Shown: positions 3,263-45,205 of the stretch, in pieces
Layout of the letters: every line of letters starts with the position of its first letter
How positions within the stretch are numbered: position 1 is the first letter of the stretch
Program-made: the position numbers and the translations under genes
Notes under the pieces: generated by a model
What the model was told of the DNA's origin: nothing
What the model saw: the letters and a program-made list of their open reading frames with translations, nothing else
Database searches by the model: none
Virus record (IMG/VR): IMGVR_UViG_3300025073_000042
Location: 15,952 to 79,951 of that record
Strand: one strand, 5' to 3'
From: a virus
DNA: 64,000 nt

Positions 3263-5107
3263 GTGAAGACCGCCTTGCCGATCCCCCGCTCGCACACGCC
3301 GACCGTCGAGCTGCTGTCCAAGGCCGCGCCGAGGCGCCGGGCCTTCCCAAGCGACCAGCGCATCTCCGGCAGCCGTCAGGCGCGCGCGCCCTCTGAACTC
3401 TCGCACCTCGCGCAGACTGGCAACGCGATGGTGCAGAGCCGCTTGTTCAGGACGCGGCGCAACGATCCGGATGTGTACGGGATGCTGAGCCGGCTGCGCT
3501 CGCGGGTCCCCGAGCACCGCATCGTGGAGTCCGAGGGCTTCGAGGGAAAGGGCGACGATGCGACGCGCGAGGGGCTGCTGCGGCTGTTCCACCGGCCTGA
3601 CGGACAGCATTCGTACCGCCAGCTTCTGTCGGTGAGCGTTGACCGGCTGAAGTGCATCGGTTCGGCGCACTGGTTGCTGCGCCGGGCCGAGGAGGTGCGC
3701 GAGCAGCTTGGGCAGCGGGTGGACGTGCTGGCGAAGGACCTGTTGGCCGAGTATCCCGGCCTGCCGACCGGCGTGCTGAGCGCGCTGTGCAACAGCTTTG
3801 CGCGGGAGCTGAGCAAGCAGGTCGAGACGCGCGGCGACTCGGACGTGGTGGGCTTCGAGGTCATGTACGGGTACGTCTGCCAGCATCCCAAGGACGAGAC
3901 GAAGTACGTGCAGACCGTCGGGAGCGGGATGCGCGGCACGCAGGAGTTCGAGGCGCGCGACGTAGTGGAGTTCATCCGGCTGGACCCGGAGACAGGTCGG
4001 CCGCTGGGGGCGCTCGCGACGCTGGAGGCCTGGAGCGACGCTTCGATCTGGGCGTTCTTGCTGAATCGCGACTCCGCGCGGACCGGGGCGATGGCTGATC
4101 GCATGATCGCCATCGAGGGTTTGAGCGACGCAGAGCGTTCGCGCATCGAGGGTCTCATGCTGTACCGCGCGGACCCGACGCAGACGGACAAGGGTTTCAT
4201 CCCGATGCTCTTGTCGCTGCAGGCGTCGTTCGAGGGGCGGGCCCCGGTGATCCACGATGTCGAGCTGTCGAACAAGTCTCGTGATGCGGGTTGGATCGAG
4301 TGGGACCGAGACGTTCTCAAGAAGCGCAAGGGCGCGGTGACGGGGGTGCCCCTGCCGCTCGTGGACGAGTGGCAGACGGTGAACCGGGCGTCGCTCGACG
4401 CTTACTACCAGCTCTTGATCGACTTCGAGTGGTGGCCGCTGTTCTGCGACCTGAACGACCCGATCAACGACCGCATCCTGCAGGACGAACTCGGCGTGCA
4501 GGACTGGATACACGAGTTCGTGGAGCCCGACCTACGGAGCAGCGAGGAGCGGTTTCGGCAGGACATGGAGCAGATGGGCGCGGGGCTGCGGACGCCCTAC
4601 GCGATGATCGCCGACGAGGAGGGAGCGCCCGAAGCAGACCGGATTATCGCCGACCTCGATGCCCGTGGTCTGGACGGCGGCGTTTTGAAGCTCCCGTGGT
4701 TCAAGACCGGCAAGGGCTGGCAGCCGATCACGGAGGTCGTTGGCCGCAAGGGCGAGCCGCCGCCGACGGTCGGGGCGCAGGACCTCGCGCGACAGATGCA
4801 GGGGAAGCCGGGCCCGTCGCTCAACGATCCGAACGCCGAGCCCGACGAAGAGCAACCTCCGCCCGAACTTGAGAAGCAACTCGCGGCGCTTGACGCCTGG
4901 CAGACGGCGTGCAACGAAGCTCTGAGCAAGGGCCTTGATCCGGGCACGGCGTGGCCGGACGAGGTGAGCGTGTATGACATCGAGGAGCGCCACCTGCGTG
5001 ATGTGGATGCACGGTTGACGGGCGCAGAAACGAAGCCCGAGGTGTCGGACGCCTTCGCGCCGGCGCGGCGGGCGCTGCGCGACGGGCTGAAGGCGGTGAC
5101 GGCATGA
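3263..5107 (+). CDS. Portal protein
   Basis: 614 aa; between terminase and head-morphogenesis genes; portal-like spacing of segments (EFEARDVVEFIR, GVPLPLV, FVEPDLR). Confidence 0.75.
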   Translation: MKTALPIPRSHTPTVELLSKAAPRRRAFPSDQRISGSRQARAPSELSHLAQTGNAMVQSRLFRTRRNDPDVYGMLSRLRSRVPEHRIVESEGFEGKGDDATREGLLRLFHRPDGQHSYRQLLSVSVDRLKCIGSAHWLLRRAEEVREQLGQRVDVLAKDLLAEYPGLPTGVLSALCNSFARELSKQVETRGDSDVVGFEVMYGYVCQHPKDETKYVQTVGSGMRGTQEFEARDVVEFIRLDPETGRPLGALATLEAWSDASIWAFLLNRDSARTGAMADRMIAIEGLSDAERSRIEGLMLYRADPTQTDKGFIPMLLSLQASFEGRAPVIHDVELSNKSRDAGWIEWDRDVLKKRKGAVTGVPLPLVDEWQTVNRASLDAYYQLLIDFEWWPLFCDLNDPINDRILQDELGVQDWIHEFVEPDLRSSEERFRQDMEQMGAGLRTPYAMIADEEGAPEADRIIADLDARGLDGGVLKLPWFKTGKGWQPITEVVGRKGEPPPTVGAQDLARQMQGKPGPSLNDPNAEPDEEQPPPELEKQLAALDAWQTACNEALSKGLDPGTAWPDEVSVYDIEERHLRDVDARLTGAETKPEVSDAFAPARRALRDGLKAVTA

Positions 5108-6934: not shown

Positions 6935-7107
6935 CCCGCGAGCAGGCTGACCAAAACATGCGTCGGATGATCCATCGGTCCCTTACGAATCCCGAGCGGC
7001 GTCCGCTCGTTATCGGACCAACAGCCGCCCGCGAGTTCGCTCGGCAATTCGGGAAGCTGCCGAGTGGGATAGTCGTTGCGCAGAGGGTACGGGAGGCGGC
7101 CCCATGA
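6931..7107 (+). CDS. Hypothetical protein
   Basis: ATGA overlaps on both sides. Confidence 0.5.
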   Translation: MTREQADQNMRRMIHRSLTNPERRPLVIGPTAAREFARQFGKLPSGIVVAQRVREAAP

Positions 7108-7448
7108 CCCGCATCCTCGTCCCCGACACCAAGCTCGCCGAGGCCGACCTCGCGCACATCGCCGACTGGCCGGCGGACCTCATCGACATCGACGCGACGG
7201 CGACCGTCCGGCGCGCTGACGGCGAACTGCGGACGGGGGTCGTCTGGTTCTACTCGGAGGACCGCGAGTGGTGCGTGGCTTTCACCTTAGAGCAGGTGCA
7301 GGCGCATCGCCTCCACGACCGCGGCTCGCCGCTCAACTTCCGCCGCCTCGTCGAAGCCGAGATCGAATCTTCCCGCCGCTCGCACATGCAGGGCGGCGCA
7401 TGGGTGAGGCCGGGATGCAGCCCCAGGTCCACGATCCTCCAGCCGTGA
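7104..7448 (+). CDS. Hypothetical protein
   Basis: Coupled ORF with GGAGG SD. Confidence 0.6.
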   Translation: MTRILVPDTKLAEADLAHIADWPADLIDIDATATVRRADGELRTGVVWFYSEDREWCVAFTLEQVQAHRLHDRGSPLNFRRLVEAEIESSRRSHMQGGAWVRPGCSPRSTILQP

Positions 7449-7648
7449 CCGCCGAACTGCTTCCGCGCGGCGGGGACGAGGTGTGCGTCGTCTGTGGGGC
7501 CTCGGGCTGCGCGGGGCGGCCCTACGCGCGCCCCCGGGTGCTGGCGCTCACGCGCGTCGAGCGGCTGTTGGGGGGCGAGTTGCAGCGGGCGGCGGGCCGT
7601 GCGTTCGAGGCGACGTGCCCGAGGTGCGGGGCGACGAATCAGCTGTGA
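7445..7648 (+). CDS. Small zinc-ribbon protein (Com-like C-terminus)
   Basis: CVVC...CPRCGATN; GTGA overlap with upstream stop. Confidence 0.5.
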   Translation: MTAELLPRGGDEVCVVCGASGCAGRPYARPRVLALTRVERLLGGELQRAAGRAFEATCPRCGATNQL

Positions 7649-7652
7649 TGGC

Positions 7653-7681
7653 TTGACGCGATAGGGTGTTCGCAGTATGCT
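7653..7681 (+). promoter_or_regulatory. Sigma70-type promoter
   Basis: TTGACG-17 bp-TATGCT. Confidence 0.75.
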
Positions 7682-7687
7682 GACCTC

Positions 7688-7908
7688 GCTCGTCCCAGGT
7701 AATGACCTCGCGAGGGGTCAGGTGAGCAGCCGCGGTGGGGAATCCGCCCCGTCCCGGAGCGGCACCCCCGGTCCCGTTTGAGGAGCGTGTACCCGGACTC
7801 AATCCCGTGGCCACGGGGAGTTCGGGGGCGCCGGCCATAACCTGGCTAAACCCGCCCATGTCTTCACATGGGCTGAAGGCCGCTCCGCGAGGGGCGGCCT
7901 TCGCTTTG
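7688..7908 (+). ncRNA. Putative ~220-nt structured ncRNA (unassigned family)
   Basis: Between promoter and terminal hairpin; closing stem CCAGGT(A)ATG / CAT(A)ACCTGG; several internal hairpins, two with GCGA tetraloops; no SD-led ORF. Confidence 0.6.
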
Positions 7909-7912
7909 GGGG

Positions 7913-7941
7913 TTGACATCATCGACGGCTCTAGGTATACT
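7913..7941 (+). promoter_or_regulatory. Near-consensus sigma70 promoter driving the GGY-NN array and RAMP-like gene
   Basis: TTGACA (7913-7918)-17 bp-TATACT (7936-7941). Confidence 0.85.
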
Positions 7942-8060
7942 GAAAGCACTTCGAGAGCTGTGCGGGTTTTGCGTTTTCGGACAACCTCTTCGGCCCCGGC
8001 AGCCCGCGCAGCTCTCGAAGGCAGCGCAAGCAGTCGGGGCCGATTTGTGTTTCAATGAGA

Positions 8061-8420
8061 GGCGAGGCGTGGTACGGTACGGCGGGCTCGGGTTTGGTTG
8101 GGCGGGGCAAGGCAGGGCGAGGGTCGTTTGCTATCATCCGCTTCCATTGGCGTGGTGTGGCCGGGTGATGTGTGTTTTGGTGGGTCCTGGCGGGGTGAGG
8201 TTGGGCGAGGCGAGGCGAGGGCTGTAACCGCCATTCTACCTCTTCACGAGGTGAGGCGCGGTCCGGCTTGGTCCGGCTTGGTAAGGTAGGGTAGGGGTCG
8301 TTCGCCATCATCCATCTTCTCACGGTGAGGCAAGGTCAGGTGCGGCAAGGTCAGGTGAGGTGCGGTCTGGTCTGGTGCGGCAAGGTTTGGTCCGGCGAGG
8401 CGAGGCAGGGCGAGGGTCGT
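8061..8420 (+). repeat. Four-unit array of phased GGY-NN pentamer tracts (putative guide-RNA array, VIPR-like)
   Basis: Tracts 8061-8120 (12 pentamers), 8149-8218 (14), 8250-8294 (9) and 8324-8413 (18). Each ends in GGGTCGT or GGGCTGT; tracts are separated by 21-24 nt C/T-rich linkers. Confidence 0.9.
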
Positions 8421-8449
8421 ACCAATCACATCCCAAGGAGGGAGCAGAC

Positions 8450-9007
8450 ATGCAGACGTTCAGGGCAAGGATCGAGGGACTGTCGCCGCTGTTGATGCAC
8501 CGCTTCAGCGAGGAAGCGGAGAAGGCCGTTGAGGAGCAGATCAAGACGAAGAAGGCCGATCACGGGACACCGGAGGAGGAGGCCGAACGCGCCGCATATC
8601 GGATCGACGGCCTGAACAGCGAGCTGTACCTGCCGGGCGAGGCGGTCTACCAGTCGCTCGTGAAGGCTGGTGTCGGCTTCGCCGTCCCTGGCGCGCGGGG
8701 GAAGACCTACAAGGATTCTGTGAAGGGCATGGTCGTCATCCAGCCGGAGTGCATTCCGCTCGGCACTGATGAGTACGTCCTCGACTCGCGCCGGGTACGC
8801 ATCCAGCGCGGAACGTGCATGAGGAAGCGCCCTCGCCTCGATCAGTGGGCGGCGGAGTTCGAGGTTATGATCTTGGACGAGGAGGCGTTGCCACCTGCGA
8901 CGCTACTCGCCATCCTGCAGCGCGCCGGTCAGATGGTCGGGGTGCTCGACTATCGTCCGCGCTTCGGGCGCTTCCAGGTGACGCTGTGGGAGCAGGTCGC
9001 GTCGTAG
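8450..9007 (+). CDS. Solo Cas7/RAMP-like RRM-fold protein (Vipr-like)
   Basis: 185 aa with SD AAGGAGG. IEGLSPLLMH (beta1 + His), LYLPGEAVYQSL (PG...L helix) and C-terminal G-rich loop AGQMVGVLDYRPRFGRFQV are RAMP/Cas7 hallmarks. Confidence 0.8.
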   Translation: MQTFRARIEGLSPLLMHRFSEEAEKAVEEQIKTKKADHGTPEEEAERAAYRIDGLNSELYLPGEAVYQSLVKAGVGFAVPGARGKTYKDSVKGMVVIQPECIPLGTDEYVLDSRRVRIQRGTCMRKRPRLDQWAAEFEVMILDEEALPPATLLAILQRAGQMVGVLDYRPRFGRFQVTLWEQVAS

Positions 9008-9042
9008 GTGTTCGATGGTTGCGGCCAAAGCACGGTCGGACG

Positions 9043-9067
9043 AGACCCGCATTCGTGCGGGTCTTTC
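9043..9067 (+). terminator. Intrinsic terminator closing the array/RAMP cassette
   Basis: AGACCCGCA-TTCG-TGCGGGTCT followed by a short T run. Confidence 0.65.
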
Positions 9068-9294
9068 GTCGTCTGGCCCTTGACAAGCCTCGCCCGCCTG
9101 TGCTAAGAGAAGACCGTCGCACCACAACAGAAGCTCGACGGTCCATCGTGTGTCGTGCCTGAAACGTTGCCCTCAGCGGGGGCAGCGTCTCGTCGGAGGC
9201 CCCGGAGGATCGCCGCGTCAAGCGCGTAGGGCTCAACCCCCTGCGCCTCGACGTTCGGCGACCCCGGGGCCGCCGTCATTTCAGGAGGCACGCA

Positions 9295-9795
9295 ATGGAC
9301 AGCACGGCGCTCCGCCCGAAGATCGCCCCGGTCGGCTTGTTCCGCACCGTTACCACCGACGACGACACCCAGAACCTGCCCGCCGTGAACACGTTCGCGC
9401 GCAACCCCGATGGTGCCTACGACTGGTGCCGGGTCTTCGCGCGCGTCTACTTCCACGGCGACGCGGATGCGACGGTCAATCTGCGCTTCGCGACCGGCGT
9501 GCAGGACGGGGTGAACGGCGTCTCCTCGTCCGTGGAGCTGAAGGGTTGGCTCGTCGAGCCCATCGGCGCGTTCGGCGTCGCAGCGGACCTCACGCCGGAT
9601 ACGCCGGTTGTGGCCGACGGCAGCCACCAGCACCAGACGCCCTCGCTGACCGAGGGCTGCTACGCGATCGACGTGCCGGTGTACGGCATGGACCTGTGGG
9701 TCGCGGTGAGCGGGTTCGCGGGCTACCCGACGGCCTACGATCCCGACTCGCAGGTAGAGTTGGCCGGGTGCTTCTTCAACAAGGCTGGTACCTGA
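9295..9795 (+). CDS. Hypothetical virion protein
   Basis: SD AGGAGG; acidic, beta-rich ORF in the head module. Confidence 0.6.
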   Translation: MDSTALRPKIAPVGLFRTVTTDDDTQNLPAVNTFARNPDGAYDWCRVFARVYFHGDADATVNLRFATGVQDGVNGVSSSVELKGWLVEPIGAFGVAADLTPDTPVVADGSHQHQTPSLTEGCYAIDVPVYGMDLWVAVSGFAGYPTAYDPDSQVELAGCFFNKAGT

Positions 9796-12024: not shown

Positions 12025-13431
12025 GTGGACGCAGGCCTCTATGATGCACTGCTGAACAAGGCGCTGACCAGCGCCTCCGACTCGGGTGGAGCGTGGCAGG
12101 ACCACATCTTCAACCCGATCTTGACGGACGCGGCCAAGAAGAAGCGGCCGATCCTGGAGTACCTCAACATCCGCCCGGCGAACGGCAACCCGCACGTCTT
12201 CCGGCGGCGCGACTCGATGCCCTACATGCACTGGCAGGGCGCGGCTGGCACGCCGGTCGCGACGCAGAGCGGCGTCTCCGGCCCGTCGGTCAACCTGAAG
12301 GTCTGCACGGGCAGTGGCGCCGTGGAGAGCTTCCTCATCTCCACCATCGGTCCCGACAACTTCGACGTGGCTTTGGCCGAGGTCATGGGCTTCATCGAGG
12401 GGACCGCGATGCAGGTGTCGGCCTCGGTGCTGTGGGGCGACGCGGGGCTGAGTGCCACGGGCGTTGAGACCTCCGGCAACGGGAACATCTACATGCCCCC
12501 CGGCCTCGATGCGGACACCGGCATCATGCGGATCAACGGGGCCGGGGCGGCGCTCACGGATGCGCTGTTCCAGAAGCTGCTGGACACGACCAACGTTGCG
12601 GGCATGACCGGCAAGCGGTTCGCGATCATGTCCTCGATGATGGCCTCGCGCCTGGAGGCTGTCACGCAGTCGCTCGGCGCGCGGTACATGGTCGATGAGG
12701 AGGGCCTCTACGGCCGCCGGATCAAGAAGTACCGGGACTGCTACATCCTGGAGAGCGACCAGACCCGCCCGCGGGCGGTCATGGGCGCGATCTCCTGCGC
12801 GGGCAGCGACGGAAGCGGCACGCTCTCGAATGGCACGTACTACTACTACGTGGCGCCCGTCACCGCCGAGGGCGAGCAGCTTCGCCAGGCCGCTGAGGCG
12901 GACGTCACCCTCGCCGCCGGCACGGCGACGCAGAAGGTGACGATCACCATCACCGCCTTCCAGTTCTCCGACACCAACGCGTTGTATGCCGATGCCGTGT
13001 ACTACAAGATCTATCGCGGCACGGGTACTGGCGCGGAGGTGCTCGTCGCGACGGTTCCGGCGCTGTCCTACAGCTCGGGCACCGTGAGCGGCGCAGACAC
13101 GACGCTTGTGGATGACGGCACCGCTGACACGCGCGGCGGCGTGACGGGTTCGCTGCCGGGCGGTGTGTCCTCGGCCGACGACGAGCTGACTGGTACGGTG
13201 ACGGCGCCCGAGGAGTGCATCTTCCTCGTGAACGCCGATCCGGCCGACGGCATCGAGATCGCGGCCAGCGCCAACAAGTCGGCGCAGGCCATCGGCGACA
13301 ACGACCTGTTCGGCCTCGTGCGCCTGGGCAAGTCGGCGCTCAACGAGCCGTTCGCGGTGGGGTCGTTCGTCGCTCCGGTCATCAAGCGCGGCGCGTGCCA
13401 CGGTGTCCTGCGGCGCGTGCTCGCGGCGTAG
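12025..13431 (+). CDS. Major capsid protein (HK97 fold) with inserted Ig/FN3-like domain
   Basis: Position after scaffold; SD GGAGG; VLWGD..., IKKYRDCYILESD; insert GTYYYYVAPV...YKIYRGT. Confidence 0.8.
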   Translation: MDAGLYDALLNKALTSASDSGGAWQDHIFNPILTDAAKKKRPILEYLNIRPANGNPHVFRRRDSMPYMHWQGAAGTPVATQSGVSGPSVNLKVCTGSGAVESFLISTIGPDNFDVALAEVMGFIEGTAMQVSASVLWGDAGLSATGVETSGNGNIYMPPGLDADTGIMRINGAGAALTDALFQKLLDTTNVAGMTGKRFAIMSSMMASRLEAVTQSLGARYMVDEEGLYGRRIKKYRDCYILESDQTRPRAVMGAISCAGSDGSGTLSNGTYYYYVAPVTAEGEQLRQAAEADVTLAAGTATQKVTITITAFQFSDTNALYADAVYYKIYRGTGTGAEVLVATVPALSYSSGTVSGADTTLVDDGTADTRGGVTGSLPGGVSSADDELTGTVTAPEECIFLVNADPADGIEIAASANKSAQAIGDNDLFGLVRLGKSALNEPFAVGSFVAPVIKRGACHGVLRRVLAA

Positions 13432-44999: not shown

Positions 45000-45205
45000 G
45001 TAAAGGCCTGCGGAGGCTACCACAACTGACCTAAGATCACCTCGCCCGACTTCGACCCGCCTCCGCAGGCACGGTCGGAGTCGGGCGTTGTGTTTCCGGC
45101 GAGGGTGGGGCGGGATCGAGACCTGCCAGTTCTGGCGTTGGCCCGCCAGACCGCCTTAGGACATAGGGGAGGCTCACCCTCGGCCAGCCGGATGGGAGGA
45201 ATTGG

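What the first reader, a model, noticed from the sequence alone, without database searches (positions are those of the whole stretch)
8061..8435. The array has CRISPR-like unit structure: four tracts with a conserved 3' end and pyrimidine-rich linkers
Seen: each tract (12, 14, 9 and 18 pentamers) ends in three or four purine-only NNs (GG/AA/AG/GA), then GGGTCGT (x3) or GGGCTGT, then a C/T-rich segment. These segments are TTGCTATCATCCGCTTCCATT, AACCGCCATTCTACCTCTTCACGA, TCGCCATCATCCATCTTCTCAC and ACCAATCACATCCCA. This is not random microsatellite slippage, because the NN content differs per unit while the boundaries are conserved. Inference: four separate guide RNAs of about 75-115 nt, with the G-rich tract end pairing imperfectly with the linker to make a 3' handle or processing signal.
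Basis: partly seen in the sequence, partly recalled or inferred. Interest (0 to 1): 0.85.

Follow-up and report, generated by a model that had tools for sequence, protein, structure and literature searches.

The report
Phage VIPR guide-RNA array
The four five-letter-repeat tracts are the guide-RNA array of a VIPR system, a CRISPR-related, phage-borne RNA-guided DNA silencer first described in 2026 preprints, so this is a genuine new example of a kind that is already known.

Summary
Window 8061-8435 holds four tracts of GGY-NN pentamers (12, 14, 9 and 18 units). Each ends in 3-4 purine-only NN units, then GGGTCGT or GGGCTGT, then a G-poor C/T-rich linker.

This is the vrRNA array of a VIPR system (bioRxiv 10.64898/2026.04.26.720920 and .720927). 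The gene 30 nt downstream (8450-9007) is a homologue of the experimentally studied SUSP1 Vipr protein. It keeps the residues that grip GGY and is predicted to fold as a Cas7/Csm3-type RAMP. Of 166 homologous loci, 151 carry such tracts on the vipr strand and only 2 on the other strand.

The proposed pairing of tract end with linker is not supported, because these segments fold no better than shuffled sequence.

- Across the family the last unit usually ends GGR, and the units before it are purine-rich.
- This locus has no vap1 homologue and no structured tail.
- No convincing target was found.

This scan has met VIPR before on other DNA: 430 notes in at least 329 genomes.

The parts
7913..7941 (+). 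sigma-70-type promoter-like site (TTGACA, 17 nt spacer, TATACT) that would drive the array and vipr as one transcript
   Evidence: 11 of 12 consensus matches. Only 2 sites were found in 1.8 kb, against 0.1 expected from shuffles. No + strand terminator-like site lies between it and 9007. Function is inferred, not shown.
7945..8053 (+). Strongly structured leader: a long hairpin plus a second stem, ending in TTGTGTTTC
   Evidence: MFE -55.5 kcal/mol, z = -3.56, and 0 of 200 shuffles fold as well. TTGTGTTTC recurs once, at 45088, behind another promoter-like site. Role unknown.
8061..8148 (+). vrRNA unit 1: 12 GGY-NN pentamers, then GGGTCGT, then a 21-nt C/T-rich tail. NN string: GA GT AC AC GG CG TT TG GG AA AG GA
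8149..8249 (+). vrRNA unit 2: 14 pentamers, then GGGCTGT, then a 24-nt tail. Units 5, 6 and 8 have a degenerate GG (TGT, GTT, GTC)
8250..8323 (+). vrRNA unit 3: 9 pentamers, then GGGTCGT, then a 22-nt tail
8324..8435 (+). vrRNA unit 4: 18 pentamers, then GGGTCGT, then a 15-nt tail that runs straight into the vipr ribosome-binding site
8436..8441 (+). Shine-Dalgarno sequence AGGAGG, 8 nt before the vipr ATG
   Evidence: Read directly
8450..9007 (+). vipr gene: a 185-aa stand-alone Cas7-like RAMP protein (P0001)

Best explanation
Window 7913-9007 is a compact VIPR (Viral Interference Programmable Repeat) cassette of an uncultured phage of about 80 kb and 67% G+C. It consists of one promoter, a structured leader, four vrRNA units and the vipr gene.

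What the literature shows for the homologous SUSP1 system:
- One Vipr protomer binds each pentamer.
- Two neighbouring protomers lock G1, G2 and Y3 away, and the filament presents the NN dinucleotides.
- The NN bases pair with double-stranded DNA while skipping every third target base (xNN).
- This forms an R-loop triplex that silences transcription of competing mobile elements.

What is inferred here:
- The four tracts are four guides with 12, 14, 9 and 18 coding units.
- The terminal GGG places a purine where the next protomer's pocket admits only a pyrimidine. Together with the G-poor, GG-free C/U-rich linker, it ends each filament.
- The bare linkers are probably cut by host RNases, since no ribozyme, tRNA or stable hairpin is present.

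The targets of these four guides are unknown.
For: 1. Protein homology.
- P0001 aligns over 97% of its length with the experimentally characterised SUSP1 Vipr.
- A profile of its relatives hits the PDB chain named 'SUSP1 Vipr protein' at E 6.1e-25.

2. Functional residues. The residues the structure paper names for GGY and skip-base binding are conserved in the alignment:
- H17 = H17
- K33 = K25
- E71 = E64
- R138 = R127
- D177 / W178 / R179 = D167 / Y168 / R169
- R127, R169 and G173 are invariant in 47 relatives. H17 is not listed among the invariant or nearly invariant columns there.

4. RNA. 49 of 53 internal units are GGY with variable NN, on the vipr strand, 30 nt upstream of its ATG.

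5. Association across the family.
- 151 of 166 loci encoding relatives have a tract of at least 7 units on the vipr strand, against 2 on the opposite strand; 443 tracts against 5.
- Among 57 non-redundant full loci, 27 have arrays upstream only, 18 downstream only, 9 on both sides and 3 none. Median tract length is 12 units, range 7-26.

6. Conserved tract ends. In 343 unique tracts the last unit carries a purine at position 3 in 46% (close clade) to 84% (other loci), against 10% or less at most internal positions (up to about 15% at a few). Units -2 to -4 are purine-purine in 40-60%, against about 30% further upstream.

7. [quoted passage not shown] The paper reports the same for its systems.

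8. Phage context. The major head protein lies at 12025-13431, and the record is a virus record.
Against: - No RNA data are available for this locus, so transcription, processing into four RNAs and binding by Vipr are all inferred from homology at 26% identity.
- No natural target reached a convincing score. The best is vr2, which matches 10 consecutive units (20 of 20 bases) in a large polyvalent protein gene of two IMG/VR contigs.
  - There the skipped base falls on codon position 1, not the wobble position.
  - The extension beyond the 8-unit seed has roughly a 0.05-0.1 chance probability (my estimate).
  - No other guide hits those records.
- No vap1 homologue is present anywhere in the genome, and the tails show no predicted structure. 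In these respects the locus departs from the characterised type II systems.
- vr2 has three degenerate units.
Confidence: 0.9

Rival explanations
1. The tracts act mainly in cis as an autoregulatory leader. Vipr coats its own 5' untranslated region, as TRAP does on the trp leader, and throttles translation of vipr. The tracts would not be released as separate guides.
For: - The array lies between the promoter and the vipr start with no terminator between them.
- The tract of unit 4 ends 15 nt before the Shine-Dalgarno sequence.
- In close relatives the last upstream tract also ends 24-45 nt before the ATG.
Against: - In 18 of 57 relatives the tracts lie only downstream of vipr, where they cannot regulate its translation.
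- The hypervariable NN against the fixed GGY has no purpose in a pure operator.
- The homologous SUSP1 upstream vrRNA1 is a working guide.
- This reading could still hold as an extra function.
Confidence: 0.05
2. This is a CRISPR-style array in which each G-rich tract end pairs with its pyrimidine-rich linker. The resulting hairpin handle would be recognised and cut by a dedicated nuclease.
For: - G-rich and C/U-rich segments lie side by side.
- The boundaries GGGTCGT or GGGCTGT recur four times.
Against: - Folding energies of tract end plus linker are no better than shuffles (z -0.89 to +0.83).
- No Cas6-like or other nuclease gene is in the cassette.
- The tail motif is not found next to arrays elsewhere in IMG/VR: 5 exact hits, none beside an array.
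- Tails of close relatives are very diverse.
- In the published structure the GG bases are held by protein and are not free to pair.
Confidence: 0.04
3. These are decoy or sponge vrRNAs that soak up or redirect a rival phage's Vipr, rather than arming this phage's own protein.
For: The October 2026 preprint reports satellite-borne and phage-borne solo vrRNAs that redirect a rival's VIPR. Earlier scan notes describe orphan guides.
Against: Here the array is co-transcribed with an intact vipr gene that keeps all the RNA-binding residues. The simplest reading is that it serves its own protein.
Confidence: 0.01

Closest known systems
Type II VIPR system of Escherichia phage SUSP1 (Vipr + vap1 + vrRNAs; bioRxiv 10.64898/2026.04.26.720920, 10.64898/2026.04.26.720927, 10.64898/2026.10.15.759431)
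   Same: - Homologous small RAMP protein with the same GGY-binding residues.
- GGY-NN pentamer tracts on the same strand beside the gene.
- A terminal GGG unit.
- Variable NN with a constant 3' end.
- Phage-borne, with no cas genes and no self-target.
   Different: - Only 26% protein identity.
- All four guides sit in one tight array inside the vipr 5' leader. SUSP1 has one guide upstream and three downstream.
- No vap1 homologue in the genome.
- Tails are 15-24 nt, C/U-rich and without predicted structure, instead of a roughly 40-nt pseudoknot.
- One guide has 18 coding units, beyond the 9-16 quoted in the paper but inside the 7-26 range I see in relatives.
- The VIPR type (I-VII) could not be assigned, because the paper's tables are not held.
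Class 1 CRISPR-Cas backbone subunits (Csm3, Cmr4, Cas7, Csf2)
   Same: - Same RAMP fold: RRM core, beta-hairpin thumb, and a glycine-rich loop before the last strand.
- The protein polymerises along a guide RNA and flips out bases at a fixed period.
   Different: - No CRISPR repeat-spacer array, no Cas1/Cas2, Cas6 or large subunit.
- The period is 5 nt, with three guide bases sequestered and one target base skipped. CRISPR backbones have a 6-nt period with one flipped base.
- No Pfam, NCBIfam or PADLOC Cas profile matches.
TRAP on the Bacillus trp leader (from general knowledge, not tested here)
   Same: A protein oligomer reads a short G-containing triplet repeated about every 5 nt in an mRNA leader.
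   Different: TRAP has an unrelated fold and forms a closed 11-mer ring. It regulates in cis, and its spacers carry no guide information.

Membership tests
VIPR system | A Vipr protein homologous to the characterised SUSP1 Vipr | tested here: met
   BLASTP gives 26% identity over residues 1-182, E 8e-17. tblastn finds SUSP1 and 129 other phage records. The profile hits PDB 36pp_D 'SUSP1 Vipr protein' at E 6.1e-25.
VIPR system | Residues that bind G1, G2, Y3 and the skipped base (SUSP1 H17, R138, D177, W178, R179, E71, K33) | tested here: met
   They align to H17, R127, D167, Y168 (aromatic for aromatic), R169, E64 and K25. R127 and R169 are invariant and D167 is nearly invariant in 47 relatives.
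VIPR system | vrRNA: at least 4 (typically 9-16) tandem GGY/NN pentamers beside vipr, with GGY conserved and NN variable | tested here: met
   There are four tracts of 12, 14, 9 and 18 units plus a terminal unit each. 49 of 53 internal units are GGY, and NN takes 13 values.
VIPR system | An invariant 3' tail after the repeat tract (a pseudoknot in the SUSP1 clade) | tested here: inconclusive
   A constant end is present: GGGTCGT or GGGCTGT followed by (T)YGCYATCATCC-like C/U-rich sequence. No structure beyond shuffles is predicted, and tails differ widely among relatives.
VIPR system | An accessory vap gene next to vipr (types II-VII) | tested here: not met
   tblastn of six vap1-type neighbours of vipr, SUSP1 vap1 included, against the whole 80-kb genome gives a best E of 0.04. 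No flanking gene is shared with any of 166 loci. The paper calls vap 'typical', not defining, and vipr plus vrRNA alone silenced the reporter. Other vap families could not be tested.
VIPR system | vrRNAs expressed as RNAs of about 100 nt that co-purify with Vipr | not testable with these tools
No wet-lab data exist for this locus.
VIPR system | A natural DNA target matching at least 80% of NN under the 1-nt-skip rule, with none in the own genome | tested here: inconclusive
   The own genome has no hit of 80% or more. Exact 8-9-unit seeds were scanned in IMG/VR and in GTDB genomes. Extensions were chance-like, apart from one borderline vr2 candidate. A mismatch-tolerant scan of whole collections was not possible.
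CRISPR-Cas (class 1) | A repeat-spacer array with identical direct repeats of 25-40 nt, plus cas operon genes | tested here: not met
   The only repeats are 5-nt and 15-nt periods. P0001 and its neighbours match no Cas profile in Pfam, NCBIfam or PADLOC.

The most novel reading that the evidence does not exclude
This locus may represent a stripped-down VIPR layout not characterised in the preprints: a polycistronic leader array with no vap gene, no ribozyme, no tRNA and no structured tail. In this reading:
- Filament ends are set purely by sequence. A terminal GGR unit blocks the next protomer's pyrimidine pocket, and a GG-free C/U-rich insulator follows.
- The 3-4 purine-only units before the end are a constant assembly or capping segment, not part of the targeting code.
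- The last guide's filament, ending 15 nt from the Shine-Dalgarno sequence, feeds back on vipr translation.
Probability: 0.3. Interest if true: 0.5.

Novelty: new member of a known kind. Interest (0 to 1): 0.35.

Why it matters
VIPR is a very recent class of programmable RNA-guided DNA binders, described only in 2026 preprints and proposed to be older than CRISPR. This locus adds a high-G+C environmental phage example with a very compact layout: promoter, leader, four guides and one 185-aa protein in 1.1 kb, with no accessory gene.

The family-wide survey made here gives simple sequence rules for where a guide ends:
- a terminal GGR unit;
- purine-rich units just before it;
- G-poor linkers in this locus.

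These rules could help annotate vrRNAs and design minimal arrays. The profile search also shows the protein family is very large, with 8,949 cluster representatives at E up to 0.001. None of this changes the known picture of the system.

Tried and rejected
Rejected readings:
- **Coding sequence or pentapeptide repeat.** No conserved frame. The tracts vary in length and lie in intergenic gaps in annotated phages.
- **Microsatellite slippage.** NN varies while GGY is fixed.
- **Known RNA family.** Rfam at E up to 10 over 7000-9500 gives only weak unrelated hits. ARAGORN finds no tRNA or tmRNA in the window.
- **Tract end pairing with linker.** Folding is no better than shuffles.

Target searches:
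- Exact seeds of 8-9 units were scanned for all four guides: IMG/VR, and GTDB genomes.
- The hits are what a codon-like pattern finds by chance. Examples are the peptide [DE]ALLA[KN]FP in unrelated proteins, and extensions of at most 6/10 plus 3/8 bases.
- vr1 matches 9 of 9 variable units in a tail gene of one IMG/VR contig. The skipped base is at codon position 2, and the one-unit extension is not significant.
- vr2 matches 10 units in a large polyvalent protein gene of two contigs. The skipped base is at codon position 1, no other guide hits those records, and they show no kinship to this phage.

Searches that led nowhere:
- The tail motif GGGTCGTTNGCNATCATCC in IMG/VR gave five hits, none beside an array.
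- The first related-loci runs with the single protein chose variable peptides and found little. The large alignment had no usable conserved stretch.

Tools unavailable:
- The paper's supplementary tables are not held, so the VIPR type was not assigned.

Full report
**What is there**

Searches show four runs of five-base units at 8061-8420 on the + strand. Read in one register, they hold 12, 14, 9 and 18 units of the form GG-pyrimidine-N-N.

- Each run closes with GGGTC or GGGCT plus GT, then a linker of 21, 24, 22 or 15 nt.
- 53 of 57 units start with GG. All 53 internal units have C or T at position 3, and NN takes 13 values.
- The 3-4 units before each end carry only purines at NN: 14 of 16 against 12 of 37 elsewhere, p = 2.7e-4.
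- The linkers are 71% pyrimidine and 6% G on a strand that is 35% G, and they contain no GG.
- Nothing comparable occurs elsewhere in the 80-kb genome. Shuffled windows give 0.26 tracts of 8 or more units.

**Context**

- A near-consensus promoter (TTGACA-17-TATACT) lies at 7913-7941.
- A very stable leader structure follows at 7945-8053 (z = -3.56).
- The array comes next, then AGGAGG at 8436 and an ATG at 8450. This opens a 185-aa ORF ending at 9007.
- No terminator-like site separates the promoter from the ORF.
- The window is phage DNA. A major head protein gene lies at 12025-13431, and the source is a virus record of 79,951 bases.

**The protein**

- P0001 matches no Pfam, NCBIfam or PADLOC model. 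It does match phrog_4652 of unknown function.
- tblastn finds relatives in 130 phage records: Felix O1-like coliphages, Gordonia, Mycobacterium and Pseudomonas phages.
- The AlphaFold model is confident, with pLDDT 93.7.

**The link between protein and repeats**

- In all five annotated phage loci fetched first, GG-period-5 tracts lie beside the homologue on its strand.
- The set was enlarged to 166 loci from IMG/VR and metagenomes.
- 151 of them have a tract of at least 7 units on the gene's strand and 2 on the other strand; 443 tracts against 5.
- Among 57 non-redundant loci with full flanks, arrays lie upstream only in 27, downstream only in 18 and on both sides in 9. Median tract length is 12 units.

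**Identification**

[quoted passage not shown] Two companion preprints turned up.

These papers describe VIPR systems:
- A roughly 20-kDa RAMP protein, Vipr, and vrRNAs of 9-16 GGY/NN repeats followed by an invariant 3' tail.
- The NN bases pair with double-stranded DNA while every third target base is skipped.
- The system silences competing phages and satellites.

The structure paper shows:
- One protomer sits on each repeat.
- G1 is held by H17 and D177. G2 is held by R138 and W178.
- Y3 sits in a pocket of the next protomer that excludes purines.
- K33 contacts the target backbone.

SUSP1 is among my tblastn hits. The direct alignment places H17, K25, E64, R127 and D167-Y168-R169 of P0001 opposite those residues. 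The PDB sequence library holds a chain named 'SUSP1 Vipr protein', which the profile of P0001's relatives hits at E 6.1e-25. The membership tests that could be run are met.

**How this locus differs from the characterised type II systems**

- All four guides sit in one tight array in the vipr leader.
- No vap1 homologue exists in the genome, and no flanking gene is shared with any other locus.
- The tails are short, C/U-rich and without predicted structure (z between -0.89 and +0.85). There is no hammerhead and no tRNA.
- The four ends resemble each other. They resemble a few relatives loosely, for example L011 and L007, but tails vary widely in the clade.
- The exact motif is absent beside arrays elsewhere in IMG/VR.

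**What the conserved ends may mean (inference)**

- Across 343 unique tracts, the last in-register unit has a purine at position 3 in 46% (close clade) to 84% (other loci) of cases, against 10% or less at most internal positions (up to about 15% at a few).
- The three units before it are purine-purine in 40-60% of cases, against about 30% further upstream.
- The pyrimidine pocket belongs to the next protomer. A terminal GGR should therefore stop filament growth, and a GG-free linker offers no new binding site.
I read it as a filament stop, not a hairpin handle.
- Cutting of the bare linkers by host RNases is a guess.

**Targets**

- Under the published rule, none of the four guides matches its own genome at 80% or more. 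The papers report the same for their systems.
- Exact seeds of 8-9 units were scanned in IMG/VR and in GTDB genomes. Extensions were chance-like.
- Two hits match every variable unit and none of the purine-only units.
  - vr1 hits a tail gene.
  - vr2 hits a large polyvalent protein gene with 20 of 20 bases.
- In both, the skipped base is not the wobble position. The guides do not converge on one record, and those contigs are unrelated to this phage.
- I treat both as unproven.

**Limits**

- No RNA data could be reached.
- The sister contigs with the identical protein could not be fetched.
- The VIPR type could not be assigned.

**Verdict**

This is a genuine VIPR vrRNA array and a new member of a kind already in print. 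This scan has met the kind often: 430 notes in at least 329 genomes. Its pairing mechanism is not supported.

Noticed in passing
window 7653-7908: Just upstream of the cassette lies a weaker promoter-like site (TTGACG-17-TATGCT, 9 of 12 matches). It is followed by about 220 nt that fold well beyond shuffles (z = -3.04) and end in a strong terminator hairpin. There is no convincing ORF, and the only Rfam hit is a sub-threshold one to the terminator part. This may be an independent small RNA.
   Followed up: partly
That motif occurs only twice in the window, against 0.12 expected. They share a few short blocks, and the overall alignment is weak. Possibly a shared regulatory leader.
   Followed up: partly
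L003 3560-3860 (Gordonia phage Trine) and L004 2660-2930, 4160-4470 (Mycobacterium phage LittleE): In these actinophage VIPR loci the pentamer tracts are separated by tRNA-like minihelices with a GGTTCGAnTCC T-loop and an acceptor-like stem. In metagenome locus L090 a full tRNA (Rfam 52 bits) starts 13 nt after a tract. This suggests that tRNA-processing enzymes cut these arrays. The main preprint text mentions hammerhead and staggered arrays, not tRNA-like spacers.
   Followed up: partly
L003 3585-4388 (Gordonia phage Trine gene 40): The annotated CDS runs across two vrRNA tracts. Its similarity to the vap-type neighbours of vipr begins only at residue 106, so the true start is probably the ATG near 3882.
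   Followed up: partly
L001 2905-3522 (Phage DSL-LC04): The Vipr homologue is annotated as 'helix-turn-helix transcriptional regulator', which looks like a mislabel. A long pentamer array lies in the 320-nt gap upstream of it.
   Followed up: no
L010, L093, L094, L096, L098, L117: Close relatives carry arrays in which tracts follow each other after only about 8 nt (GGCTGAGG or GGCTGATG). These look like the 'staggered' arrays mentioned in the preprint.
   Followed up: no
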